In this document: one piece after another, positions 1,908 through 34,991 of the stretch | How the letters are laid out: the number at the start of each line of letters is the position of its first letter | Numbering within the stretch: the first letter of the stretch is position 1 | Sequence record: PZ338878.1 | DNA from: a phage | Reading direction: 5' to 3' (one strand) | Length of the DNA stretch: 64,000 nt | The notes under the pieces: generated by a model | Databases searched by the model: none | Told to the model about the DNA's origin: nothing | What the model saw: only the letters and a program-made list of their open reading frames with translations | Translations under genes and position numbers: made by a program

Positions 1908-2938
1908 TGTTCCTCCTGCTCTGAAATATATGCTTGTAGCATACTTTCAAAAGTTGTTTCATCATTCGCCCAACGTTTCATATATACCAACTGAAAAATT
2001 GTCTCTATCCATTCGTCAGTTGTCATCTCTACTTCTTCACCATCCCAAGAAGTAAATTTAACGCCATCTGGGAACCATTCATAATACTGATCTTTAACTG
2101 TCTGAAAAAGTTCAGCCTGTGTTTTACATTTGGAAATAAGATTAAAGCAAGTAATATCTCCAAACTTAACATCGAAATCTTGGTAAGGTCGAATACTATC
2201 TGTCTTATCACCCATTAGCATTTGATAAGCTAACCAGTAACTACCCCAACCCTTAATTTCTTTTTTCTTACCTTTTTCTACGATCCAGATATCACCAATA
2301 GATTCATCAATCAGAATAATACAAGGATTTTTATAAACACCATCCTCTTTATAAAAGTTAAAGAGTAAACTTGGTGTGTGCAAGCTATCTTTGTCGATAG
2401 ATGCTACAATATGAGAAAACTTACCAGTCTCCTTGTAGGCTTTATACCCTGCATATCCATAGATTTCTAAAGCATCATCTGCCTCAATACCAGTAACAAC
2501 GTCACCGTTATGTTTTTCAACTAGATAATCTTTAGTATCTGATAAATGGATTGGTCTTAAATCTGATCGTTCTGATTTATATTCTTTTGGCATTTTGAAA
2601 GAATGCCGGAAGGTTTTTCCTACCCCGATGACACCGCAATACTTTTGAAGTTTTAGGTGATCCATCATCTGGGTTATTTTTGTCTTTGCAGCTTGAAACG
2701 TAAAAGAAATATTATCTGGGACTATTTGAACGTCTTTTATTTCAAAATCTTCTCTAGAGAACAACTTCTTACCAGCAGCTTCGCGTTGCGCGTTAAGTAC
2801 TCCTAACCATCCTCCAATATTTTTTGAAGATTTACCCCAAAAATCTGTTCTTGTTTCAAACTCTTTTACATTACCGGAAGCCTTGTGTACAGCGTGGATT
2901 TTTCTTTGTTCTAAAGCTGAAGATGCTTGGAACGCCAC
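1904..2938 (-). CDS. 5'-3' exonuclease / flap endonuclease (Pol I 5'-nuclease-like)
   Basis: GIEADD and ASIDKD motifs matching the FEN/5'-nuclease GxEADD...S.DKD signature; 4-nt overlap with upstream gene. Confidence 0.6.
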   Translation of the reverse strand: MAFQASSALEQRKIHAVHKASGNVKEFETRTDFWGKSSKNIGGWLGVLNAQREAAGKKLFSREDFEIKDVQIVPDNISFTFQAAKTKITQMMDHLKLQKYCGVIGVGKTFRHSFKMPKEYKSERSDLRPIHLSDTKDYLVEKHNGDVVTGIEADDALEIYGYAGYKAYKETGKFSHIVASIDKDSLHTPSLLFNFYKEDGVYKNPCIILIDESIGDIWIVEKGKKKEIKGWGSYWLAYQMLMGDKTDSIRPYQDFDVKFGDITCFNLISKCKTQAELFQTVKDQYYEWFPDGVKFTSWDGEEVEMTTDEWIETIFQLVYMKRWANDETTFESMLQAYISEQEEH

Positions 2939-3030
2939 TTGATCGTAGTCTATTGCAAGAATTGTGTTCTCGTCAACATATTTGTGCAGGTCTTCCGGTT
3001 GGATTAAAATGTAACCGCTAATATTACCTC

Positions 3031-3243
3031 CTATTCATCATCTGAACTCTCTGTTGAGAATGTTCGTGTGTAGGGACACTGACGACTTGCAGAAACCTCT
3101 ATAACCTTGTCGTACATACCATTAGAGTAAAAACAGTATTTTGTACTTCCAGAAACTTGTTCTCCAGAATTAATTAAAGTTATTTGACCAGCATAAGAAT
3201 AAGAACTGATTGCTAGAAGTAAACCGACAAGAAGTTTTTTCAT
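3031..3243 (-). CDS. small secreted protein with N-terminal signal peptide (70 aa)
   Basis: MKKLLVGLLLAISSYSYA hydrophobic leader; AGGAGA RBS. Confidence 0.4.
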   Translation of the reverse strand: MKKLLVGLLLAISSYSYAGQITLINSGEQVSGSTKYCFYSNGMYDKVIEVSASRQCPYTRTFSTESSDDE

Positions 3244-3256
3244 GGTGTGTCTCCTT

Positions 3257-3284
3257 AAAAGCCCACCTAACTAAGTAGGTAGGC
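3257..3284 (-). terminator. rho-independent terminator downstream of the RdgC-like gene
   Basis: Minus-strand hairpin GCCTACCTA-loop-TAGGTGGGC followed by TTTT. Confidence 0.45.
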
Positions 3285-3317
3285 ATATTAACACATATTA
3301 AATTAGTAAGTCAAGTA

Positions 3318-4223
3318 TTATTTTTGAATAGTTGACTTGATAAGGTCTTGCATAATACCACGGATTTCGTTAAAGCACAGAAGGACAGATGCTTCAAAAG
3401 ATCCTTCTTCATCATTAAAGTATTTAGGGAATTTAATACCACTCAACTTAAATTCTTTATCAACAATAAAGTTAACGAAGCCGTCATATTCCAGGCCAAT
3501 GGCAACAACGTGCTTACCATCTTCCATAAGTTCTACTGCACGAGATTCATAAAGGGACTCTTTACTCCATACAACCACACCTTCCGAATCTTCAAGTTTA
3601 ATATAATTACCCAGGGTCAGTCGTTCAGCTTCATGTTCTTCTAAGATGGTATCAAAACCTTTAATAATGGCTTCTTCGTGTACACTAAACGGCAGAACTG
3701 GGAAAGTACCCAACACCTCACGAAGAAATACAGCAATATCTTCACTAATTTTCTTAGTACCATTAAGAACATAGGTAATACTGTTTTCAGTGTCTACAAC
3801 AACATAGTTATAGAAATCATCTGCCTCTGTTTCTGGGAGCAGAGAAAACACAATATCAGCCTCAATTGCTTTTTTGCTTTCTTTGTCCAAGAAGAACTCT
3901 TTAGTAGGATTTGCAGCAATAAACTCTTGTTCCATCTCCTGGAGTTTTTCATTAAGAATGCGTTTAACTTTCTTCTTGTTAACTTTCTTAACAGACTGCC
4001 CTACTTTAATAACCTCTAAACCAGAGAACACTTTTACATAGGAACCATCATCTTCAAAACGAACAAGACCAATGGTATGTGCTTGTTGCCCCTGTGCCAC
4101 AACAAAATCCAGCGGTTTGTCTGTTACTGTGTTCAGTGCTGAAATAGACAGACCATCACCAGAAATCAGGGTTACGCAAGATTTGAAATTTTTAGCAAAC
4201 ATAGTTTTCTCCTCAAATAACAA
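3318..4223 (-). CDS. rdgC: recombination-associated protein RdgC-like
   Basis: About 300 aa; blocks colinear with E. coli RdgC from memory (SLLPETEADDFYNYVVVDTENSITYV, ISEDIAVFLREVLGTFPVLPF). Confidence 0.55.
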   Translation of the reverse strand: MLFEEKTMFAKNFKSCVTLISGDGLSISALNTVTDKPLDFVVAQGQQAHTIGLVRFEDDGSYVKVFSGLEVIKVGQSVKKVNKKKVKRILNEKLQEMEQEFIAANPTKEFFLDKESKKAIEADIVFSLLPETEADDFYNYVVVDTENSITYVLNGTKKISEDIAVFLREVLGTFPVLPFSVHEEAIIKGFDTILEEHEAERLTLGNYIKLEDSEGVVVWSKESLYESRAVELMEDGKHVVAIGLEYDGFVNFIVDKEFKLSGIKFPKYFNDEEGSFEASVLLCFNEIRGIMQDLIKSTIQK

Positions 4224-10246: not shown

Positions 10247-10524
10247 TACTTATTCCTTTTGTTGTTGATCACATCTAAAGCTGTGTAAGGTTTGTTTGTA
10301 CCGCTGTATTCAAGAATAATTGGTACATATTCATAGACCAACTCAAAAGTACCATACATAGAATCTGCAACTGAAATAAGCATTTCAGTGCCTTTGTCGT
10401 TCTTAATTAATGAAAATCTTGCCCCTGGTTTATTGAGCACTTCATATTTCTTACCTGCTGTCAGCAAACCTGAATACCATTCATTTTCCACAACAGATAA
10501 ACACTTCAGATAAGTTTTTCTCAT
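10246..10524 (-). CDS. hypothetical protein (92 aa)
   Basis: ORF, start/stop overlap with neighbours. Confidence 0.4.
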   Translation of the reverse strand: MRKTYLKCLSVVENEWYSGLLTAGKKYEVLNKPGARFSLIKNDKGTEMLISVADSMYGTFELVYEYVPIILEYSGTNKPYTALDVINNKRNK

Positions 10525-10862
10525 TTCTTTTTGCTCCTTCTTTTAGGCTTCTCGTATAAACCTAACACAGCCGACTCTTTTGCGCAAATAGGAACTGACT
10601 TCATTCCTCGTTTTTTAGCTTCTGGTAGATTCAAAACCCACCAGCCAAACCAGTACAATTCATCTTCTGTGAAAGGATCTGCCATAGGATCTGCATCACG
10701 TGCTTCAAATTTAGCAAGAGCTTCTTCTATCTTTTCTATTGGAGTATCAAAGACAAAAGCCTCTGTGTCAAATTTTTGTTTCTTAGGAGCGGCTTTTGCC
10801 GCCACATCTTTAGATGCGCGCTTTGTTACGGATCGCTTCTTCGGTGTTTTCGCCATCAACAA
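10521..10862 (-). CDS. hypothetical basic protein, possibly nucleic-acid binding
   Basis: Lys/Ala/Pro-rich basic N-terminus and basic C-terminus. Confidence 0.4.
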   Translation of the reverse strand: MLMAKTPKKRSVTKRASKDVAAKAAPKKQKFDTEAFVFDTPIEKIEEALAKFEARDADPMADPFTEDELYWFGWWVLNLPEAKKRGMKSVPICAKESAVLGLYEKPKRRSKKK

Positions 10863-11049
10863 CCTCCATGCGGTGTAAGAAATCTTGCTGGAATCGCCAA
10901 TACTGTTGACCAGTCCTTACATCTTCGTAGATCACAACAGGATCAAATACTTTAGATACACCCGCTGGTTTAGGAAAGCCAACTACACGATATAAACCGC
11001 CTTTGCTAATACAAGAATATGTTACATCAGTTAAAATTTCTTTTTTCAT
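10810..11049 (-). CDS. hypothetical protein (79 aa)
   Basis: ORF in co-directional block. Confidence 0.35.
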   Translation of the reverse strand: MKKEILTDVTYSCISKGGLYRVVGFPKPAGVSKVFDPVVIYEDVRTGQQYWRFQQDFLHRMEVVDGENTEEAIRNKARI

Positions 11050-28751: not shown

Positions 28752-29400
28752 TATCTACGAACAAATTGAATTGTATGAAAATACGATATTATTAAATATC
28801 GCTAAGTTCTTACAAAGACTCGTGGGGCTTCCGGTTTATGTTATGGATAAGCCATTTGTTAAACCAACAACCCCATATCTGACATTACGTATTGTATCAT
28901 CTGATGATTCAGGTGGTTGGTCACAAAAATATTCTTTTAGTGAAGATGCGTTTTCATATCTAATGGACAATAAGTATGAAATAGAACTTATGGCTTTTAG
29001 AGGAAGACCAATGACACTTTTAAGTTATGTTCTTGCGGCACTTCGTGGTGCAGATGAATTAAAATACCAGTATCTTTATTCCAAAGGTATTAGCTTCTTG
29101 TCTGCAACAAATGTTGCACAGGCTAACACTGTTCTGGATGGAGATAAAACTGAACAAAGAGCGAGAATATTTCTTACATTCAATACTACGATGGTTATTG
29201 AGGATTTAGTAACTACCGAAATTGAAGCAATTAATATGAACATTCATTCGTTCAGAGATGATTACGATGATCCTACTCCAATAGATCTTCCTTTGGATAA
29301 GATTTACATTGTTGCTCACAGAAGTAAAACTTATTACTTTACGACGACTGATGATGGATCATTAATTAAGTATATCCCAACGGATAATTCATTGGAATAA
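28744..29400 (+). CDS. neck/tail-completion protein (putative, by synteny)
   Basis: ORF; probable TTG start at 28744 after GAGGAGGG RBS (ORF-track ATG at 28699 lies deep in the upstream gene). Confidence 0.35.
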   Translation: MANIYEQIELYENTILLNIAKFLQRLVGLPVYVMDKPFVKPTTPYLTLRIVSSDDSGGWSQKYSFSEDAFSYLMDNKYEIELMAFRGRPMTLLSYVLAALRGADELKYQYLYSKGISFLSATNVAQANTVLDGDKTEQRARIFLTFNTTMVIEDLVTTEIEAINMNIHSFRDDYDDPTPIDLPLDKIYIVAHRSKTYYFTTTDDGSLIKYIPTDNSLE

Positions 29401-29420
29401 AGTTTCTAACAGGAGCATAA

Positions 29421-30827
29421 ATGGCAACTTTTCGTGATAAGGTAGTTTCCGTAACCCTTACCTACGGTGCTACTTCAATTAGTGAAACACAGTTTGATAT
29501 CCCTCTAATTCTTACAGGGCATAACGTTACTGGCAATCTTGTAGATTATTTCACTTCTTCAGACGCACTTCTGCAAGCAGGTTTTGGCACTGCCGATCCA
29601 GCTTATAAAATGGCAAAACTACTATTTGACGGTCTGTTCGCACCAGAACAAGTTATCGTCGGTAAGCGTGATGTTTCTAAAACAACTCTAACTCCAGTAG
29701 TTGAAGATAGTGCAACTTACGTTATCACTATTAAAGCAAATTCAAAAAGCAAGGACTTCAAGTTTGTTGCCGATGATACTGCAACTGCTCAAGAGATTGT
29801 TGTTGGTTTAACAGAAATGATCAACGCAGACATGGTGTATAAAGAATTCTTCACTGTGTCAAACGATGGTAGTGTTATCACTGTAACCCCAGTTGCAGGT
29901 AAATACGCTACTATGGATAGTTCAGGATTCACAACTAAAGTAGAATATGCAAATGATATCTTAGAAGATATTGCTAAAATTGCAGATTATGAAAACAGTT
30001 GGTTCTGGTTACTATCTGATTCTCACGCAGAACAAGATATTATCGATCTAGCAGGTTATGTAGAAGAGCACGATAAAGTGTATTTCTTCTCTACCTCGCA
30101 ACCAGGTGTTCTAACTAAACAAGAAGATAACATTCTAGAACGCTTAGGTGATATGGGCTACAATAACACTTGTATGGCATTGTGGATGACTAACGCTGAT
30201 ACAGTGTTCCCAGAAGCTGCTGTAGTTGGTTCTATCTGCTCTGCAACACCAGGTACTACTACCCTGCATGGTAAAACCCTTGTTGGTATCGAGATTGAAA
30301 AACTTGGTCAGACAGCAGAAAACTTTATCGTTCAACAGAATGGTAATATTTACCGTAAAGAACACGGTGTTCTGTTCTACCGTGATGGTTTCATGGTTAG
30401 TGGTTTCTATGTTGACTATGTGGTACACGCTCTGTGGTTCAAAGCTCGCGTAGAAGAATCTCTGTTCGCTCTATTTAAACAGCAATCTATGCTTGGTAGT
30501 GGTGTTAGAGCAACTTCTGCTGGTCTTGCTTTGATTCGTCAGGCTGTTACTGCAAACCCAATCCAAGTAGGTATTAACAATGGTTCTATTGCCAATGAGG
30601 TAGTAACTTCAGAGGAAACAGGACTTCTGGTAAGCCTTAAACCTACTATCTATATCCCATCTCGTGCAGATATGACTGATGCTCAAATCAATGCACGTTT
30701 GGTTGATGGTATGGTTATTGAATACGTATATGCTGGATTCTTCCACTATGTTAAAGTGCAGGTAAACGTTCTGACGAACCGCACTGCAAATAGCCAGAAT
30801 TCCAATAGCTCTACTGTATCTTCATAA
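29421..30827 (+). CDS. tail sheath protein (putative)
   Basis: 468 aa, biased codon usage, AGGAG RBS, directly upstream of tube-sized gene. Confidence 0.45.
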   Translation: MATFRDKVVSVTLTYGATSISETQFDIPLILTGHNVTGNLVDYFTSSDALLQAGFGTADPAYKMAKLLFDGLFAPEQVIVGKRDVSKTTLTPVVEDSATYVITIKANSKSKDFKFVADDTATAQEIVVGLTEMINADMVYKEFFTVSNDGSVITVTPVAGKYATMDSSGFTTKVEYANDILEDIAKIADYENSWFWLLSDSHAEQDIIDLAGYVEEHDKVYFFSTSQPGVLTKQEDNILERLGDMGYNNTCMALWMTNADTVFPEAAVVGSICSATPGTTTLHGKTLVGIEIEKLGQTAENFIVQQNGNIYRKEHGVLFYRDGFMVSGFYVDYVVHALWFKARVEESLFALFKQQSMLGSGVRATSAGLALIRQAVTANPIQVGINNGSIANEVVTSEETGLLVSLKPTIYIPSRADMTDAQINARLVDGMVIEYVYAGFFHYVKVQVNVLTNRTANSQNSNSSTVSS

Positions 30828-30835
30828 TTAAAAGC

Positions 30836-30853
30836 AGCGGGGGAAACCCCGCT
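30836..30853 (+). terminator. GC-rich hairpin (partial terminator/attenuator) between sheath and tube genes
   Basis: AGCGGGG-GAAA-CCCCGCT with no U-tract. Confidence 0.3.
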
Positions 30854-30885
30854 TATATGAAAAGTAGTATAAAAGGAGATCCACT

Positions 30886-31365
30886 TTGGATAAAATGCTT
30901 ACTGGCGTAATGGCCTATGATCCTTCTCAAGTAATCCTGTCTTTGGGTGGTTGGGAACCTTGGGGTTTCGCCGCAGATACCAAAATTGTTATTAACAAAA
31001 CTAACGATATCATCAACCCATATTCAGGTACTGATGGTGACGTTTCCTTGGCGCTTAGTCGTAACCGTTTAGGTACGCTAACAATGTCACTGCAACGTAC
31101 TTCTCCAGCAAACGAAGTTCTTGCTGCTTATGCACAAACGATGTATTCTACTCGTCAAGTAGCATTTAGCGTATATCTGGAAGACCCTCGCGGATATTAT
31201 ATCAGCACAATTGGTTGGATTCAAAGCCAACCGGACGATACTATTGGTGAAACTATTCAAGAAAACCAATGGGTAATTGGTCTTAAAGATGCAAGCCTAC
31301 TTCGTTCTACTGTAGGTGTTGGTGTTAACGCACTTAACTCTATTAGTGCTCTAACTATTCAGTAA
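30886..31365 (+). CDS. tail tube protein (putative)
   Basis: 159 aa ORF after sheath gene; AAAGGAG RBS; TTG start. Confidence 0.45.
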   Translation: MDKMLTGVMAYDPSQVILSLGGWEPWGFAADTKIVINKTNDIINPYSGTDGDVSLALSRNRLGTLTMSLQRTSPANEVLAAYAQTMYSTRQVAFSVYLEDPRGYYISTIGWIQSQPDDTIGETIQENQWVIGLKDASLLRSTVGVGVNALNSISALTIQ

Positions 31366-31368
31366 TAA

Positions 31369-31394
31369 AAAGGGCAGAAATGCCCTTTATTTTT
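31369..31394 (+). terminator. rho-independent terminator after the tube gene
   Basis: AAAGGGCA-GAAA-TGCCCTTT then ATTTTT. Confidence 0.55.
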
Positions 31395-31408
31395 AAAGAG
31401 AGGAAATA

Positions 31409-31891
31409 ATGGAACAACAAAAAGATAATACTATTGCAAAATTTGCTCGTCCAGAAGTAATGGTTGAAATTGATCTGGATGAAGGACGCAGTGTAAAATT
31501 TAGAGTTCTCAAGTGGAGTCCGACTAAAGTTTTTGAAAGGATTCCAGAACTAGGTAGTGTACTGGCTGTTCCTATGACAATGTATAATACTGCTCTTATG
31601 TCAGCAGACGAAGATCTAGAAGCTCGTATTGCTATGGCACTGATCCAATTATTCAGTGGTCTGGAAGAAAAAAACTTAGCCGCATTCTTACGTAAAATTT
31701 TAGATGAAGTTTACACAGAAGCAGGACACAGTGTTTCCGATAATTTTGATGAATTGTTTTTTGCTCACCCAGAATTAGTTGTTGACTTAGCTGCAAAAGT
31801 TCTTGAGGTGAACTATGCCCCTTTTTTCAAACGAGGTTTCGGAAAACTGTTGACCCAATTTCAAGGAATAGAGACTCTAGCGAAGAGTTAA
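31409..31891 (+). CDS. tail assembly chaperone (G-like)
   Basis: 160 aa ORF between tube and tape-measure genes; slippery site near its 3' end. Confidence 0.5.
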   Translation: MEQQKDNTIAKFARPEVMVEIDLDEGRSVKFRVLKWSPTKVFERIPELGSVLAVPMTMYNTALMSADEDLEARIAMALIQLFSGLEEKNLAAFLRKILDEVYTEAGHSVSDNFDELFFAHPELVVDLAAKVLEVNYAPFFKRGFGKLLTQFQGIETLAKS

Positions 31892-32166
31892 GTCCGGCAA
31901 TTAAATCAGCAATTGAAATTGCCTCACAAACCCTTAGCTTGACATGGTATGAAGTAATTCTTTGTAAGGTAATTAAGAATACCTCCGAAACCTTGTCCTC
32001 GTTAGATAATTATGGTGTAGATTATCTACTTAAAATTTATGAATATTTAACATTTGAAGACTATGTACAAGATCTTCACGTTAAAGATGCGGATATTAAA
32101 CGTGGTCAACAGAGAACAATAAGAGAACTGGATACGGCTATGAAAAAATTAATTCCAGATTCATAA
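31409..32166 (+). CDS. tail assembly chaperone, -1 frameshift fusion product (G-T-like)
   Basis: Shift at 31822-31828 joins ORF 31409 to the 31939-32166 ORF frame; canonical position immediately upstream of the tape-measure gene. Confidence 0.4.
31822..31828 (+). other. -1 programmed ribosomal frameshift slippery heptamer T TTT TTC
   Basis: X XXY YYZ heptamer in the chaperone 0 frame; the -1 frame is open from 31807 to 32166. Confidence 0.45.
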
Positions 32167-32185
32167 GTAATACGGAGGATTACCC

Positions 32186-34165
32186 TTGTTAGAAATTAAC
32201 ACTTCCAAGATTAAGAATACAGTAACGTTTACTGTAGATAAAGACAGTTTAAAAAATACTAAAGACGCAATTAAAAACCTTAAAACTTTTACAGAATCTA
32301 TTGAACCATCTTTAAATATGACTAAAATGCGTCGTCAGTTTAAAAGTATGGAAGAGTATGCTAAAAGAATAAGGCAGCAAATGTCAGGTCTTGGCGGCGG
32401 TAATCCTCCACCAATCCCACCAGCCGGAGGTTCAAGTGGTGGTGGAAAAGGAGGAAGTGGTAGAGGTGGTTCTGGATCTTCTGGAGGACGTAAGACACCA
32501 GAGGAAAGAGCCGCAGAAGCCGCCGCTAAACGTGCAGCACTTGCTAATATGAAGCAAGACGATTTTAGTTTTAAAGCTATGCCTTTTACAAAAGCAGACA
32601 GCAGAATTCTAGAAAAATCTAAAAAGATTGTAGAAGAAACTGTTGAACTTTATCGTAAAGGTGTAATCACTAGCCAACAAATGAATAATACTTTGGCTAG
32701 ACAGTTAGAAGAACTACGAAGATCTCATAGAGAGAAGAATGCACAACTTCTTGATGAAGAGAGAGCTAGACGTAGAATTGCCCGTCTGCAAGAAGCAGAA
32801 GATAAAAGAAGACAGCGTATCCGAGAAAGAGAAAGAAAGGATTTCGAACGTCAGCAAAGAAGAGAGAAAGAAGCAAGACAACGAGATAGACAACGTAAGC
32901 TATCTGGTGTAGGTAATGCTGCTATTGCTCTTAACCCTGCTATGTTTGGTGCTGCTCTTTTAGGTGCTGGTTTATATCAAGGTATAAGCAAAATAGCTGA
33001 AAATATTACAGCGGCGGCAGAACGTATTAATATGGTTAGTAAAGGTGGTCAGAACGTACAGGTAAACCCTAACGCAATTTTAACAATGCGTACTTGGGGT
33101 GAAATGAACGGTGTAGACTCTGCCAGCATTATTAAAGCCATTGACAATATTAAAGACGTTCGTGAACGTTTAGGTAATACTGTACTCCACTCTGAATTTG
33201 ATGAAAAATCAGGTAAATGGAAAGGTGGAGATAGTGGTATTAATGAAATCATGAACCAATTTGGTTGGTCGAAAGAAGATGTTGCTAAATTCCAGAACAG
33301 ACCTCTAGACTTTGTTCAAGCACTTGTTAATGAAGGTCAAAAAAGAGGAATGAACTCCGCGCAAATTGGTCGTTTGATGGAAAACCTTGGTGATGACTTA
33401 ATGCACTACCAACGTATGTTTTTGGATAACGGTAAAGAGTACATGAAAGTCTTGGATATGTTAAAAAATTCAGGAGCAACTCTTAACGATGAAAACATCA
33501 AAGCAGCACAAGATTTTGTTAAACTAAGAGCACAAATTAGTGCAGCAGGAGAAGGTTTTACCAATAACTTACTTGTAGGGTTTATGGATGGTTTAAAATC
33601 TGCACCAGATTTTGCAGAAAATATGAAAACTTTCCAAGAAGCTGCTCGTGGTCTTGGTGAAATGTCTGGTAGTATTGTAAGTAGCCTTGCAAAAATTGCG
33701 AAATATTTCCTTGATTTTTCAAATAAGGTTGGGCCAAAAAACAATACTAAAGAAGCTGTAAGAGATTATTATAATGGTACGCAGTATGGGTACGATGCAC
33801 AGGTTGGTGGTAATCCTTGGGCTTATTGGCCTATTGGAAGAGATCAACATAAACCTGAAAATCAACCTTTAGGTGACTTTGATAGTAGTTTCTTAACTAG
33901 CGCCTTAAACCCAAGTGCTTCTAGTATTGGTTACAATAGACCTGATTTAACAGCATCTATGCTAACACCACGCCAAGGTGTTCCAGTACCGTTAAGTCTA
34001 GAGAATACGGTTGTTATCCCAGACAACGCATTCCAGATTAATGTTATTCCAGATGGTTATGGTTTTAGTAATTATCTAGATGCGACAATGAATACCAGTT
34101 TTAGTAACTTCTCACAAGGTTTAACTCTTCAGTTAAGCAGTGGACAATCTTCTACTGGTGGTTAA
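32186..34165 (+). CDS. tail tape measure protein
   Basis: 659 aa; Gly-rich tracts (GGGNPPPIPPAGGSSGGGKGGSG); Arg/Glu-rich coiled coil; TTG start after GGAGGA RBS. Confidence 0.6.
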   Translation: MLEINTSKIKNTVTFTVDKDSLKNTKDAIKNLKTFTESIEPSLNMTKMRRQFKSMEEYAKRIRQQMSGLGGGNPPPIPPAGGSSGGGKGGSGRGGSGSSGGRKTPEERAAEAAAKRAALANMKQDDFSFKAMPFTKADSRILEKSKKIVEETVELYRKGVITSQQMNNTLARQLEELRRSHREKNAQLLDEERARRRIARLQEAEDKRRQRIRERERKDFERQQRREKEARQRDRQRKLSGVGNAAIALNPAMFGAALLGAGLYQGISKIAENITAAAERINMVSKGGQNVQVNPNAILTMRTWGEMNGVDSASIIKAIDNIKDVRERLGNTVLHSEFDEKSGKWKGGDSGINEIMNQFGWSKEDVAKFQNRPLDFVQALVNEGQKRGMNSAQIGRLMENLGDDLMHYQRMFLDNGKEYMKVLDMLKNSGATLNDENIKAAQDFVKLRAQISAAGEGFTNNLLVGFMDGLKSAPDFAENMKTFQEAARGLGEMSGSIVSSLAKIAKYFLDFSNKVGPKNNTKEAVRDYYNGTQYGYDAQVGGNPWAYWPIGRDQHKPENQPLGDFDSSFLTSALNPSASSIGYNRPDLTASMLTPRQGVPVPLSLENTVVIPDNAFQINVIPDGYGFSNYLDATMNTSFSNFSQGLTLQLSSGQSSTGG

Positions 34166-34172
34166 TGCATAA

Positions 34173-34196
34173 AGCCTCGCTTCGGCGGGGCTTTTT
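34173..34196 (+). terminator. rho-independent terminator after the tape-measure gene
   Basis: 8-bp stem AAGCCTCGC/GCGGGGCT with TTCG tetraloop then TTTTT. Confidence 0.6.
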
Positions 34197-34203
34197 ATTT
34201 GTC

Positions 34204-34233
34204 TTGACAAAGAGTTGTTTTTCGTGATAAAAT
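34204..34233 (+). promoter_or_regulatory. sigma70-type promoter (TTGACA, 18 nt, TGa-TAAAAT)
   Basis: Perfect -35 plus extended -10; upstream of the baseplate gene block. Confidence 0.5.
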
Positions 34234-34280: not shown

Positions 34281-34991
34281 ATGGCAGCAAACACTCCAGA
34301 ACAACACGTTCAAGCGGTTTATAAAGCGGAACAAGATATAAATTCTACAAAAAACACAAATAACTCTGCCTCTACTGTGAAAGGGGAGAATGGTTTTTGT
34401 ATTTTAGCAAGTGTTTACAATAGTGCAAGTGATCAATATATTCAAAACTACCAGGCTATAGTTTTTGATGCTGTGCCAAATATCGGTGTAAAACGCCAAG
34501 CAGATGTTACTAGCTATCCTGTAGAAAATGGTGCTAATGTATCGGATCACGTTCAAGTTAAAAATAATACTTTCTCTTTATCAGGAATGATTACAGAGAC
34601 ACCTGTAAGATTGATGCGAGATATGCTATATAGTGCTGGTGTTAACGGTACTCGTATCAGTCAAGCAATTACTTACTTAGATAAAATATTTGATGAAAGA
34701 CAGCCTATCATTTTAATAACAGAACATAAGGTGTATGAGAATGTTATTTTGAAAGGCATATCATATGAATATCAAACAGAATATGCAATGCAATTTGACT
34801 TGGAATTTGAACAAGTAAGATTAGTTTCCTACGGGGAAACAAATGCTATTGCACTTAAGACAAAACCAAATAAGAATACAGGTGTTAAAAACAAGAAAGG
34901 TACTAGTCCAGATGCTGATTTGGATGCAAGAACAGGGAAAGCAACTGGTACAGAACATCTTAGTGATCACAGTGCAGATGGTAAAAAATAA
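34281..34991 (+). CDS. baseplate/tail structural protein (putative)
   Basis: ORF with AAGAGG RBS; first gene after the TMP terminator. Confidence 0.4.
   Translation: MAANTPEQHVQAVYKAEQDINSTKNTNNSASTVKGENGFCILASVYNSASDQYIQNYQAIVFDAVPNIGVKRQADVTSYPVENGANVSDHVQVKNNTFSLSGMITETPVRLMRDMLYSAGVNGTRISQAITYLDKIFDERQPIILITEHKVYENVILKGISYEYQTEYAMQFDLEFEQVRLVSYGETNAIALKTKPNKNTGVKNKKGTSPDADLDARTGKATGTEHLSDHSADGKK

What the first reader, a model, noticed from the sequence alone, without database searches (positions are those of the whole stretch)
31807..32166. Programmed -1 frameshift site in the tail assembly chaperone
The chaperone ORF contains the slippery heptamer T TTT TTC (31822-31828) about 20 codons before its stop. 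The -1 frame is open from 31807 through ORF 31939-32166, so a shift would give a C-terminally extended fusion just upstream of the tape-measure gene, the conserved G/GT arrangement of tailed phages.
Basis: partly seen in the sequence, partly recalled or inferred. Interest (0 to 1): 0.45.

Follow-up and report, generated by a model that had tools for sequence, protein, structure and literature searches.

The report
Tail chaperone -1 frameshift, phi92-like phage
This is almost certainly the ordinary "G/GT" trick of tailed phages: a few ribosomes slip back one base on C CCT TTT TTC near the end of the tail-chaperone gene and make a longer fusion protein. It is strongly conserved, but it is not annotated in any of the 23 phi92/rV5-group records I opened.

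Summary
The window is a phi92-like E. coli myophage (Justusliebigvirus). T TTT TTC lies at 31822-31828 in the right phase of the chaperone ORF (31409-31891, Pfam Phage_TAC_15), 20 codons before its stop. The -1 frame is open from 31807 to 32166, just upstream of the tape-measure gene.

A single in-phase heptamer could be chance, about a 12% probability in the overlap. Comparison with relatives settles it:
- All 58 related loci examined (12 clusters at 70% protein identity, down to about 28%) have xxT TTT TTC in phase. The only two exceptions have other canonical heptamers (A AAT TTT, G GGA AAG).
- The two Phe codons are fixed (TTT 36/36, TTC 36/36), while other invariant Phe codons vary freely.
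- The residue before them changes (Pro, Cys or Ser) but its codon always ends in T.
- The -1 ORF has no Shine-Dalgarno sequence and no conserved start codon, and its conserved peptide begins upstream of the TTG.

No conserved downstream RNA structure was found. An upstream SD-like GAGGTGA may stimulate the shift.

Predicted products are G (160 aa) and GT (252 aa). No protein data exist. This is a new member of a known kind, of low to moderate interest, mainly an annotation correction.

The parts
29421..30827 (+). Tail sheath gene (phi92 gp130 homologue). Context only.
   Evidence: ORF. Pfam DUF3383, 1.2e-21. Annotated as tail sheath in relatives. Found in the phi92 virion by cryo-EM.
30886..31365 (+). 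Tail tube gene (phi92 gp131 homologue), TTG start. Context only.
   Evidence: Pfam KPP10_Orf10. Tube protein gp131 in PMC13450770.
31369..31396 (+). Intrinsic-terminator-like hairpin plus T run between the tube and chaperone genes. It probably lowers chaperone and tape-measure expression relative to sheath and tube.
   Evidence: 8-bp stem, T tail. Terminators are annotated at the same place in phAPEC8, PATM and FBKp34.
31409..31891 (+). Tail assembly chaperone ORF 'G' (phi92 gp132 homologue). 160 aa, 18.1 kDa; the zero-frame product.
   Evidence: Pfam PF21822 Phage_TAC_15, 1.6e-22. PHROG 3840, 4.4e-54. SD AGGA before the ATG. Mass.
31804..31806 (+). TGA in the -1 frame. The -1 frame is open only from 31807, 12 nt before the decamer (15 nt before T TTT TTC).
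31805..31811 (+). SD-like GAGGTGA, a 7-nt match to the anti-SD, ending 10 nt before T TTT TTC. Candidate upstream stimulator (inferred, not shown).
   Evidence: 2 copies in the window. It is built from rare codons: GAG 32 against GAA 146, and GTG 24 of 211 Val codons. Glu133 is GAG in all 8 Stephanstirmvirinae-type clusters (those with CCT at residue 138) but not in Certrevirus. Sharma 2014 searched for stimulatory SD-like sequences 6-17 nt upstream of the motif.
31819..31828 (+). Slippery decamer C CCT TTT TTC, made of two overlapping in-phase heptamers: C_CC.U_UU.U (31819-31825) and U_UU.U_UU.C (31822-31828). A slip at either gives the same peptide, ...YAPFF-QTR...
   Evidence: Conserved in all Stephanstirmvirinae loci. 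T TTT TTC is conserved in 12 of 12 clusters. Both motifs are listed as shift-prone in E. coli (PMC4066793).
31828..32166 (+). -1-frame extension 'T': 112 codons plus the stop. The first 21 codons overlap G, and roughly the first 20 residues form the predicted disordered linker; a helical domain follows. Fused to G residues 1-140 it gives GT, 252 aa, 28.8 kDa.
   Evidence: PHROG 16039, 3.2e-45. AF2 model: residues 1-18 disordered, helices 23-35, 40-51, 56-59 and 63-108, mean pLDDT 68.
31939..31941 (+). TTG used as the start of 'gp133' in GenBank records. Probably not a real initiation site.
   Evidence: No SD in the 18 nt upstream, unlike all flanking genes. Start codons are not positionally conserved, and 4 relatives have none. 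The TTG lies inside the conserved SL.W motif and after helix 1. Gene callers chose at least 5 different starts.
32186..34165 (+). Tape measure protein gene (phi92 gp134 homologue), TTG start with GGAGG SD. It begins 19 nt after the GT stop.
   Evidence: PHROG 16051. SD. TMP gp134 in PMC13450770.

Best explanation
Programmed -1 ribosomal frameshifting in the tail assembly chaperone gene, the G/GT arrangement.

**Products.** Most ribosomes translate 31409-31891 and release the 160-aa chaperone G. A minority slip back one base with tRNA-Phe (or tRNA-Pro and tRNA-Phe) on C CCU UUU UUC (31819-31828). They then read CAA at 31828 and continue to 32166. The result is a 252-aa GT protein: G residues 1-140, a flexible linker of about 20 residues, and a helical T domain of about 90 residues.

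**Function, by analogy with lambda gpG/gpGT.** The shared G part coats the tape measure protein (32186-34165). The rare T domain recruits the tube protein so that tube and sheath polymerise to the measured length. Neither form remains in the virion.

**Signals.** The shift appears to rely on the slippery sequence itself, possibly helped by the internal SD-like GAGGUGA 10 nt upstream. No downstream RNA structure is involved.

**Shown versus inferred.** Shown: the sequence architecture, its deep conservation and the nucleotide-level constraint. Inferred: that slippage occurs, how efficient it is, the SD effect, and what the T domain binds.
For: 1. **Architecture.** G is a Pfam and PHROG tail assembly chaperone lying between the tube and tape-measure genes. 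The heptamer is in phase, and the -1 frame is open from 12 nt before the slippery decamer to 19 nt before the tape-measure start.

2. **Conservation.** In all 58 loci from GenBank and IMG/VR, the -1 frame runs 218-278 nt past the G stop. All have an in-phase T TTT TTC inside the open window except Vibrio S4-7, which has A AAT TTT.

3. **Nucleotide-level constraint.** Phe139 is TTT in 36/36 and Phe140 is TTC in 36/36. The equally invariant Phe31 splits 17 TTT to 19 TTC and Phe117 splits 10 to 26. Residue 138 is Pro, Cys or Ser in different clusters but is always encoded by a codon ending in T: CCT, TGT or AGT, in 12 of 12 clusters.

4. **Motif turnover.** Vibrio S4-7 uses A AAT TTT and Rheinheimera Barba18A uses G GGA AAG within the same overlap.

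5. **The T part cannot start on its own.** There is no SD. Start codons are scattered or absent. The conserved residues A..A....SL.W and the first predicted helix lie upstream of the TTG.

6. **U_UU.U_UU.C and C_CC.U_UU.U are shift-prone in E. coli** without stimulators (PMC4066793).

7. **Published parallels.** A -1 PRF at a GTTTTT motif was proposed for the TAC of the sister clades Vandenendeviridae and Andersonviridae (PMC12846349). A frameshifted chaperone was annotated in the Felix O1-like phage Moogle.

8. **Virion composition.** The phi92 cryo-EM paper lists gp130, gp131 and gp134 in the virion and never mentions gp132 or gp133. That fits an assembly-only role.
Against: - There is no direct evidence for a GT protein: no proteomics, ribosome profiling or reporter data were found.
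- No downstream stimulatory structure is predicted. Fold z-scores are -1.5 and +1.3, and the alignment fold is -0.42 kcal/mol. Efficiency could therefore be low.
- Conservation of the FF dipeptide and of both frames in the overlap accounts for part of the nucleotide conservation downstream of the heptamer.
- All 23 GenBank records opened annotate two separate genes or omit the second.
- A +1 U insertion by RNA polymerase at the T6 run would give the identical protein.
Confidence: 0.9

Rival explanations
1. Transcriptional slippage. RNA polymerase adds one extra U at the T6 run (31822-31827) in a fraction of transcripts. Standard translation of those transcripts then gives the same GT protein (...PFFQTR...).
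For: The product would be indistinguishable from that of -1 PRF (sequence logic). The site is a homopolymeric T run in nearly all relatives. Sharma 2014 notes that A7 and U7 runs are avoided in all frames, possibly because of transcriptional slippage.
Against: - The run is only 6 nt and is held at exactly 6 by an invariant TTC (36/36). To my knowledge, known bacterial slippage sites are longer runs.
- Outgroups use the heteropolymeric heptamers A AAT TTT and G GGA AAG, which fit tandem tRNA slippage and not polymerase stuttering.
- The base before the run is constrained to T, or to C-CCT, in codon phase. That matters only to a ribosome.
Confidence: 0.05
2. Two independent genes. ORF 31939-32166 (phi92 gp133) is translated from its own TTG as a 75-aa protein, and the heptamer is incidental. 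This is how GenBank records annotate it.
For: An ORF with a TTG start exists. TTG starts are genuinely used by neighbouring genes, the tube and the tape measure. Records annotate it as a separate CDS.
Against: - There is no SD within 18 nt upstream, whereas all five flanking genes tested (sheath, tube, G, tape measure and the gene after it) have one.
- Start position is not conserved. Four relatives have no ATG, GTG or TTG anywhere before the conserved Trp.
- Conserved -1-frame residues and predicted helix 23-35 lie upstream of the TTG.
- Gene callers picked at least 5 different starts, and some records drop the ORF.
- It does not explain the fixed xxT TTT TTC.
Confidence: 0.03
3. Chance. The heptamer and the open -1 frame are coincidental and the downstream ORF has no function.
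For: An in-phase heptamer somewhere in a 28-codon stretch has a probability of about 0.12 in this AT-rich genome.
Against: The arrangement is conserved in 58 of 58 loci across 12 clusters, down to about 28% protein identity. The T peptide is conserved and matches its own PHROG.
Confidence: 0.02

Closest known systems
Phage lambda gpG/gpGT and the conserved tail-chaperone frameshift of long-tailed dsDNA phages (Levin 1993 and Xu, Hendrix & Duda 2004, as summarised in PMC5009743)
   Same: - Two overlapping ORFs immediately upstream of the tape-measure gene.
[quoted passage not shown]
- A C-terminally extended minor product.
- No downstream structure detected here. That lambda needs none is from my own knowledge.
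   Different: - No detectable sequence similarity to lambda G; the family is Pfam Phage_TAC_15.
- The heptamer is U UUU UUC (lambda uses G GGA AAG, from my own knowledge).
- This is a contractile-tail phage of about 148 kb.
- The ratio of products and the binding partners are untested.
TAC-N/TAC-NC -1 PRF at a conserved GTTTTT motif in Vandenendeviridae (Pakpunavirus Adele) and Andersonviridae (PMC12846349; Moogle, PMC4319497)
   Same: - The clades are related; that paper groups Stephanstirmvirinae and Vequintavirinae with them.
- Same locus, same kind of argument (an uninterrupted -1 frame across divergent alleles), and a poly-T slippery motif near the 3' end of TAC-N.
- Vequintavirinae relatives of this window carry TGTTTTTTC, which contains GTTTTT.
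   Different: - The passages of that paper I retrieved by term search make no frameshift claim for Stephanstirmvirinae or Vequintavirinae.
- The phi92 group has CCCTTTTTTC, with no G and a double heptamer.
- Homology between this G protein and the Pakpunavirus TAC was not tested here.
E. coli dnaX and IS911/IS3 -1 frameshift signals (upstream SD-like element, heptamer and downstream hairpin or pseudoknot; PMC4066793)
   Same: A canonical heptamer, with an SD-like GAGGUGA that ends 10 nt upstream. This is inside the 6-17 nt window in which Sharma 2014 searched for stimulatory SD-like sequences.
   Different: - There is no downstream hairpin or pseudoknot and no Rfam frameshift element.
- The SD-like element is not conserved in all relatives; Certrevirus has GAAGTC.
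T4-like tail assembly chaperones (Vladimirov, Gautam & Davidson 2022, cited in PMC12846349)
   Same: Large virulent myophages that have a short and a long chaperone form.
   Different: [quoted passage not shown] Here the classical heptamer with a -1 overlap is present.

Membership tests
G/GT-type tail assembly chaperone with programmed -1 frameshift | Two ORFs located between the major tail/tube gene and the tape measure gene | tested here: met
   Tube 30886-31365, G 31409-31891, -1 ORF to 32166, tape measure 32186-34165. Same order in 23 annotated relatives.
G/GT-type tail assembly chaperone with programmed -1 frameshift | The second ORF is in the -1 frame and overlaps the 3' end of the first | tested here: met
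   (31939-31409) mod 3 = 2. The -1 frame is open from 31807, giving an 85-nt overlap. True of all 58 loci.
G/GT-type tail assembly chaperone with programmed -1 frameshift | A canonical X XXY YYZ slippery heptamer, in zero-frame phase, inside the overlap | tested here: met
   T TTT TTC at 31822-31828 and C CCT TTT at 31819-31825. Both motifs are shift-prone in E. coli.
G/GT-type tail assembly chaperone with programmed -1 frameshift | The slippery site and -1 architecture are conserved among divergent homologues beyond what protein conservation explains | tested here: met
   All 12 clusters have xxT TTT TTC. The Phe codons are fixed 36/36, against free variation at the other invariant Phe positions. 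Residue 138 is P, C or S with a T-ending codon. Two outgroups carry alternative heptamers.
G/GT-type tail assembly chaperone with programmed -1 frameshift | The downstream ORF lacks its own translation initiation signals | tested here: met
   No SD before the TTG at 31939. Start codons are not conserved and are absent in 4 relatives. Conserved coding sequence extends upstream of the TTG.
G/GT-type tail assembly chaperone with programmed -1 frameshift | Two proteins, G and GT, made in a fixed ratio and both required for tail assembly | not testable with these tools
   No proteomic or genetic data were found. Predicted masses are 18.1 and 28.8 kDa.
G/GT-type tail assembly chaperone with programmed -1 frameshift | The chaperones are absent from the mature virion | not testable with these tools
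   Indirect only. The phi92 cryo-EM paper lists gp130, gp131 and gp134 and never mentions gp132 or gp133.
Pfam PF21822 Phage_TAC_15 | Whole-protein score above the curated gathering threshold | tested here: met
   80.8 bits against a cut-off of 22, E = 1.6e-22, covering residues 29-144.
GTTTTT-motif TAC frameshift of Vandenendeviridae/Andersonviridae (PMC12846349) | An invariant GTTTTT motif near the 3' end of TAC-N | tested here: not met
   The window has CCCTTTTTTC, with no G before the T run. Vequintavirinae relatives (TGTTTTTTC) and Aeromonas phiA019 (AGTTTTTTC) do carry the motif. The site works the same way but the literal motif differs.
GTTTTT-motif TAC frameshift of Vandenendeviridae/Andersonviridae (PMC12846349) | Sequence homology of the chaperone to Pakpunavirus or Felix O1-type TACs | not tested
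   tblastn with the phi92-type and rV5-type G proteins listed no Pakpunavirus or Felix O1-type hits among the organism names and rows shown. No profile comparison was run.
dnaX/IS911-type multi-element -1 PRF signal | An SD-like sequence 6-17 nt upstream of the heptamer | tested here: met
   GAGGTGA at 31805-31811, ending 10 nt upstream. It is made of rare codons. Its function is untested and it is only partly conserved.
dnaX/IS911-type multi-element -1 PRF signal | A stable, conserved hairpin or pseudoknot a few nucleotides downstream | tested here: not met
   The 50-nt fold is -5 kcal/mol (z = +1.33) and the 100-nt fold has z = -1.54. RNAalifold on 12 sequences gives -0.42 kcal/mol and no pairs near the site. 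There is no Rfam match.

The most novel reading that the evidence does not exclude
The phi92 group has evolved an unusual structure-free, high-efficiency signal. It combines a tandem double-slippery decamer (C CCU UUU UUC, two overlapping in-phase heptamers that yield one product) with an internal 7-nt SD match (GAGGUGA) 10 nt upstream. This could give a GT:G ratio well above lambda's, about 1:30. If so, the chaperone stoichiometry of large contractile-tail phages would differ from the siphophage paradigm. The same site would be a nucleotide-level fossil retained across whole phage families, with occasional heptamer replacement.
Probability: 0.15. Interest if true: 0.4.

Novelty: new member of a known kind. 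Interest (0 to 1): 0.25.

Why it matters
**Annotation.** The main value is a correction. All 23 phi92-, phAPEC8-, rV5-, PVP-SE1- and phiTE-group records I opened, out of roughly 500 with a homologue, annotate "gp133-like" hypothetical proteins with arbitrary starts or omit the ORF. They should carry a joined chaperone CDS with a -1 shift at C CCT TTT TTC. Many of these are therapeutic-candidate coliphages and Klebsiella phages.

**A model site for frameshift signals.** It is a clean, deeply conserved natural example of U_UU.U_UU.C frameshifting in E. coli with no downstream structure. It also has a possible SD stimulator and natural heptamer replacements in outgroups.

**What it does not change.** It adds nothing new to how tails are understood to assemble.

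Tried and rejected
- **Downstream stimulatory RNA structure.** Single-sequence folds of 50 and 100 nt and an RNAalifold run on 12 Stephanstirmvirinae sequences found nothing near the site. Rfam at E <= 1 gave only sub-threshold chance hits: SraG on the terminator and a CRISPR repeat.
- **Natural single-ORF G-T fusions**, which would have shown directly that the two parts form one protein. A profile search of 1.84 billion representatives with the T domain returned 17 hits, all 107 aa or shorter. The word-index search returned 17 short ORFs of 64-84 aa. None is a fusion.
- **Solved structures.** The G profile gives only a marginal hit to 5ir0_A, "ORF19" (E = 0.015). The T profile gives nothing.
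- **Structure prediction of the T part.** The AF2 model has pLDDT 68 and no Foldseek match in the PDB. I used it only to show that helix 1 precedes the TTG.
- **Second in-phase heptamer in G.** A AAA AAC at 31669-31675 meets the -1 TGA at 31804 and is not conserved outside close relatives. I judged it incidental.
- **ORF 10531-10878.** It has heptamers and a 77-nt -1 extension, but it is a shadow ORF antisense to gene 10521-10862. I treated it as an artefact.
- **Literature.** Searches for a published frameshift in phi92, rV5, phAPEC8, PVP-SE1, Stephanstirmvirinae or Vequintavirinae found none.
Full report
**What the window is.** The region 29400-34200 is 99.7% identical to Escherichia phage pEC-M2929-1AR.1 and 99% or more to other Justusliebigvirus (phi92-like, Stephanstirmvirinae) myophages of about 148 kb. 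The 777-nt chaperone region is 99.2% identical to phi92 itself. The local gene order is:
- tail sheath 29421-30827;
- tail tube 30886-31365;
- a 160-aa ORF 31409-31891 (phi92 gp132);
- a small ORF 31939-32166 (phi92 gp133);
- tape measure protein 32186-34165 (phi92 gp134).

The 160-aa ORF is a tail assembly chaperone by Pfam (PF21822 Phage_TAC_15, 80.8 bits against a cut-off of 22) and by PHROG 3840. The -1-frame part matches PHROG 16039, a family of unknown function.

**Checking the observation.** TTTTTTC lies at 31822-31828. The chaperone frame reads CCT|TTT|TTC, so the heptamer is in canonical X XXY YYZ phase. Twenty sense codons follow before the TAA at 31889-31891. The -1 frame is closed by TGA at 31804-31806 and open from 31807 to the stop at 32164-32166, and the 31939 ORF is in that frame. 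The site is therefore the decamer C CCT TTT TTC, unique in the window. A slip on either heptamer gives the same peptide...YAPFF-QTRFRK...

**Is it more than chance?** Taken alone, hardly. The AT-rich window (38% GC) has 81 in-phase XXXYYYZ heptamers in 18,313 codons, so at least one in the 28-codon overlap has a probability of about 0.12. The chaperone ORF is nevertheless the only real gene in the window that combines such a heptamer with a -1 extension of more than 200 nt. The one other hit, 10531-10878, is a shadow ORF on the strand opposite a real gene. The case rests on comparison with relatives.

**Comparative evidence.** I collected 23 annotated GenBank regions and 44 IMG/VR loci. They span Stephanstirmvirinae, Vequintavirinae (rV5, PVP-SE1, phiTE and CR3 types), Aeromonas phiA019, Vibrio S4-7 and Rheinheimera Barba18A. 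Chaperone identity to the window falls to about 24-30%.

- In all 58 loci analysed, the ORF downstream of the chaperone is in the -1 frame. That frame runs 218-278 nt beyond the chaperone stop and ends just before the tape-measure gene.
- All have T TTT TTC in phase inside the open -1 window, with one exception among the 58 (Vibrio S4-7, A AAT TTT) and one in a later outgroup (Rheinheimera Barba18A, G GGA AAG).
- Among 36 unique sequences, Phe139 is TTT in 36/36 and Phe140 is TTC in 36/36. The equally invariant Phe31 and Phe117 use TTT and TTC 17:19 and 10:26.
- Across 12 clusters at 70% protein identity, the residue before the Phe pair is Pro, Cys or Ser, yet it is always encoded by a T-ending codon: CCT, TGT or AGT. 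That constraint acts on the RNA and not on the protein.
- The two exceptions carry other canonical heptamers in the same overlap: A AAT TTT in Vibrio S4-7 and G GGA AAG in Rheinheimera Barba18A. Replacement of one slippery motif by another is what selection for ribosomal slippage predicts.

**The downstream ORF is not a free-standing gene.**
- The TTG at 31939 has no Shine-Dalgarno sequence within 18 nt. The sheath, tube, chaperone, tape-measure and following genes all have one.
- Candidate start codons in the -1 frame fall at different alignment positions in different relatives. Four relatives have no ATG, GTG or TTG at all before the conserved Trp.
- The conserved -1-frame peptide (A...A....SL.W...) begins 10 residues upstream of the TTG, which lies inside the SL.W motif.
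- An AlphaFold2 model of the 112-residue -1 part has mean pLDDT 68, which is moderate. It shows a disordered linker (residues 1-18) followed by helices 23-35, 40-51, 56-59 and 63-108. The first helix would be lost by starting at residue 38.
- Gene callers have chosen at least five different starts for homologues. RefSeq records for phages alia and nieznany omit the ORF.
- Neither a word-index search nor an exhaustive profile search of 1.84 billion representative proteins found this domain in any protein longer than 107 aa. It exists only as this -1-frame piece.

**Mechanism.** E. coli tRNA-Phe reads both UUU and UUC (my own knowledge), so both tRNAs re-pair after a one-base backward slip on U UUU UUC. 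Sharma et al. 2014 place H_HH.U_UU.Y among the most efficient heptamers in E. coli. They list U_UU.U_UU.C and C_CC.U_UU.U among motifs with more than 0.1% frameshifting without any stimulator (PMC4066793).

I found no downstream stimulator:
- the 50 nt after the heptamer fold at -5 kcal/mol (z = +1.33);
- 100 nt give z = -1.54;
- an RNAalifold consensus of 12 Stephanstirmvirinae sequences is -0.42 kcal/mol with no pairs near the site;
- Rfam gives nothing relevant.

A possible upstream stimulator does exist. GAGGTGA (31805-31811) is a 7-nt match to the anti-SD and ends 10 nt before T TTT TTC. That lies within the 6-17 nt window in which Sharma et al. searched for stimulatory SD-like sequences. 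It is built from codons that are rare in this phage: GAG 32 against GAA 146, and GTG 24 of 211 Val codons. GAG is kept in all eight Stephanstirmvirinae-type clusters. It is absent from Certrevirus (GAAGTC), and a second internal copy of the heptanucleotide exists in the window. I therefore rate it only as plausible.

The invariant C at heptamer position 7 is partly explained in this group. A T there would create TAA as the first -1-frame codon (sequence).

**Products and role.** Predicted products are G (160 aa, 18.1 kDa) and GT (252 aa, 28.8 kDa). GT consists of G residues 1-140, a linker and the T domain.

By analogy with lambda, as summarised in PMC5009743, G and the G part of GT bind the tape measure protein. 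The T part recruits the tube subunit, and neither stays in the virion. The 2026 cryo-EM study of phi92 fits this. It lists gp130, gp131 and gp134 among virion proteins and never mentions gp132 or gp133.

A terminator-like hairpin between the tube and chaperone genes (31369-31388) is also annotated in relatives. It would lower expression of the chaperone and tape-measure genes relative to sheath and tube.

**Rival explanations.**
- **Transcriptional slippage** at the T6 run would give the same protein. The run is held at exactly six, outgroups use heteropolymeric heptamers, and the constraint is tied to codon phase. I give it about 5%.
- **Independent initiation at the TTG** is contradicted by the points above. 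I give it about 3%.
- **Pure coincidence** is excluded by conservation.

**Relation to what is known.** The G/GT frameshift has been known since lambda and is widely conserved in long-tailed phages (PMC5009743). A December 2025 paper argued for the same -1 PRF at an invariant GTTTTT motif in the chaperone of Vandenendeviridae and Andersonviridae, which are sister clades of this group (PMC12846349). The Felix O1-like phage Moogle was annotated with a frameshifted chaperone in 2015.

I found no paper stating it for phi92-, phAPEC8-, rV5- or PVP-SE1-like phages. None of the 23 GenBank records opened carries a joined CDS. The phi92-group site lacks the literal GTTTTT motif (it is CCCTTTTTTC), but it works the same way.

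**Verdict.** Protein-level proof is lacking. This is a new member of a known kind, so interest is low to moderate (0.25). The practical outcome is a correction to annotation. The site is also a well-conserved, structure-free U_UU.U_UU.C signal with a testable SD stimulator.

Noticed in passing
window 31369-31396: An intrinsic-terminator-like hairpin (8-bp stem plus T run, readable on both strands) sits between the tail tube gene and the chaperone gene. Terminators are annotated at the same spot in phAPEC8, PATM and FBKp34. It probably sets lower expression of the chaperone and tape measure than of sheath and tube.
   Followed up: partly
window 34171-34233: A strong terminator-like hairpin (10-bp stem, 34171-34194) lies right after the tape-measure stop. 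It is followed by an 11/12 sigma-70-like promoter (TTGACA-18-TAAAAT with a TG extension, 34204-34233) ahead of the next tail gene at 34281.
   Followed up: no
window 31669-31675: A second in-phase heptamer, A AAA AAC, lies inside the chaperone ORF. A -1 slip there would stop at TGA 31804-31806 after about 43 codons. It is present in phi92, and as AAAAAAT in Klebsiella KP2025, but not in more distant relatives. It is probably incidental.
   Followed up: partly
L064 (Rheinheimera phage Barba18A) 1830-1836; L015 (Vibrio phage S4-7) 1803-1809; L065 (Aeromonas phiA019) 1842-1848: Slippery-motif turnover in distant homologues of the same chaperone: G GGA AAG in Barbavirus, A AAT TTT in Vibrio S4-7, and T TTT TTC retained in Aeromonas phiA019 after a Ser (AGT) codon. 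None of these records annotates a frameshift.
   Followed up: yes
L064 2132-2770; L014 (phiTE) 2246-3346: The usual tight spacing between the -1 ORF and the tape-measure gene is broken in some relatives. An HNH endonuclease gene on the opposite strand is inserted in Barba18A. Two extra ORFs lie between the -1 ORF and the tape-measure gene in phiTE.
   Followed up: no
GenBank records MG065645, MG065656, MG065652, MG065658 and others: Records named 'Campylobacter phage' (host C. jejuni) are at least 99% identical in this region to E. coli phi92-like or rV5-like phages. 'Serratia phage KKP_3264' is 99.9% identical to the window. 'Acinetobacter phage ABPW7' and 'Pseudomonas phage PsgM04F' match at about 74%, like Phapecoctavirus-type E. 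coli phages. The host labels may reflect contamination, polyvalent hosts or mislabelling.
   Followed up: no
window 10531-10878 (+) and 10521-10862 (-): A 115-aa ORF on the + strand has in-phase AAATTTA and AAATTTT heptamers and a 77-nt -1 extension. It is almost exactly antisense to a 113-aa Lys-rich ORF on the - strand. It is a shadow ORF and not a second frameshift candidate.
   Followed up: yes
window 30886 and 32186: Both the tail tube gene and the tape measure gene appear to start at TTG, each with a good SD (AAGGAG and GGAGG). Some records call the tube gene from a later start (PaulScherrer, 471 nt against 480 nt).
   Followed up: no
window 32390-32480 (within the tape measure gene): The tape measure protein has a Gly/Ser/Pro-rich low-complexity stretch (GGGNPPPIPPAGGSSGGGKGGSGRGGSGSSGG) near its N terminus, followed by a highly charged Arg/Glu-rich segment. 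The phi92 cryo-EM paper could not resolve the N-terminal part of gp134.
   Followed up: no
L009 (phi92, NC_023693) 464-556: The phi92 RefSeq record carries a 'Hypothetical tRNA' feature inside the tail sheath coding sequence. It is probably a false tRNA call.
   Followed up: no
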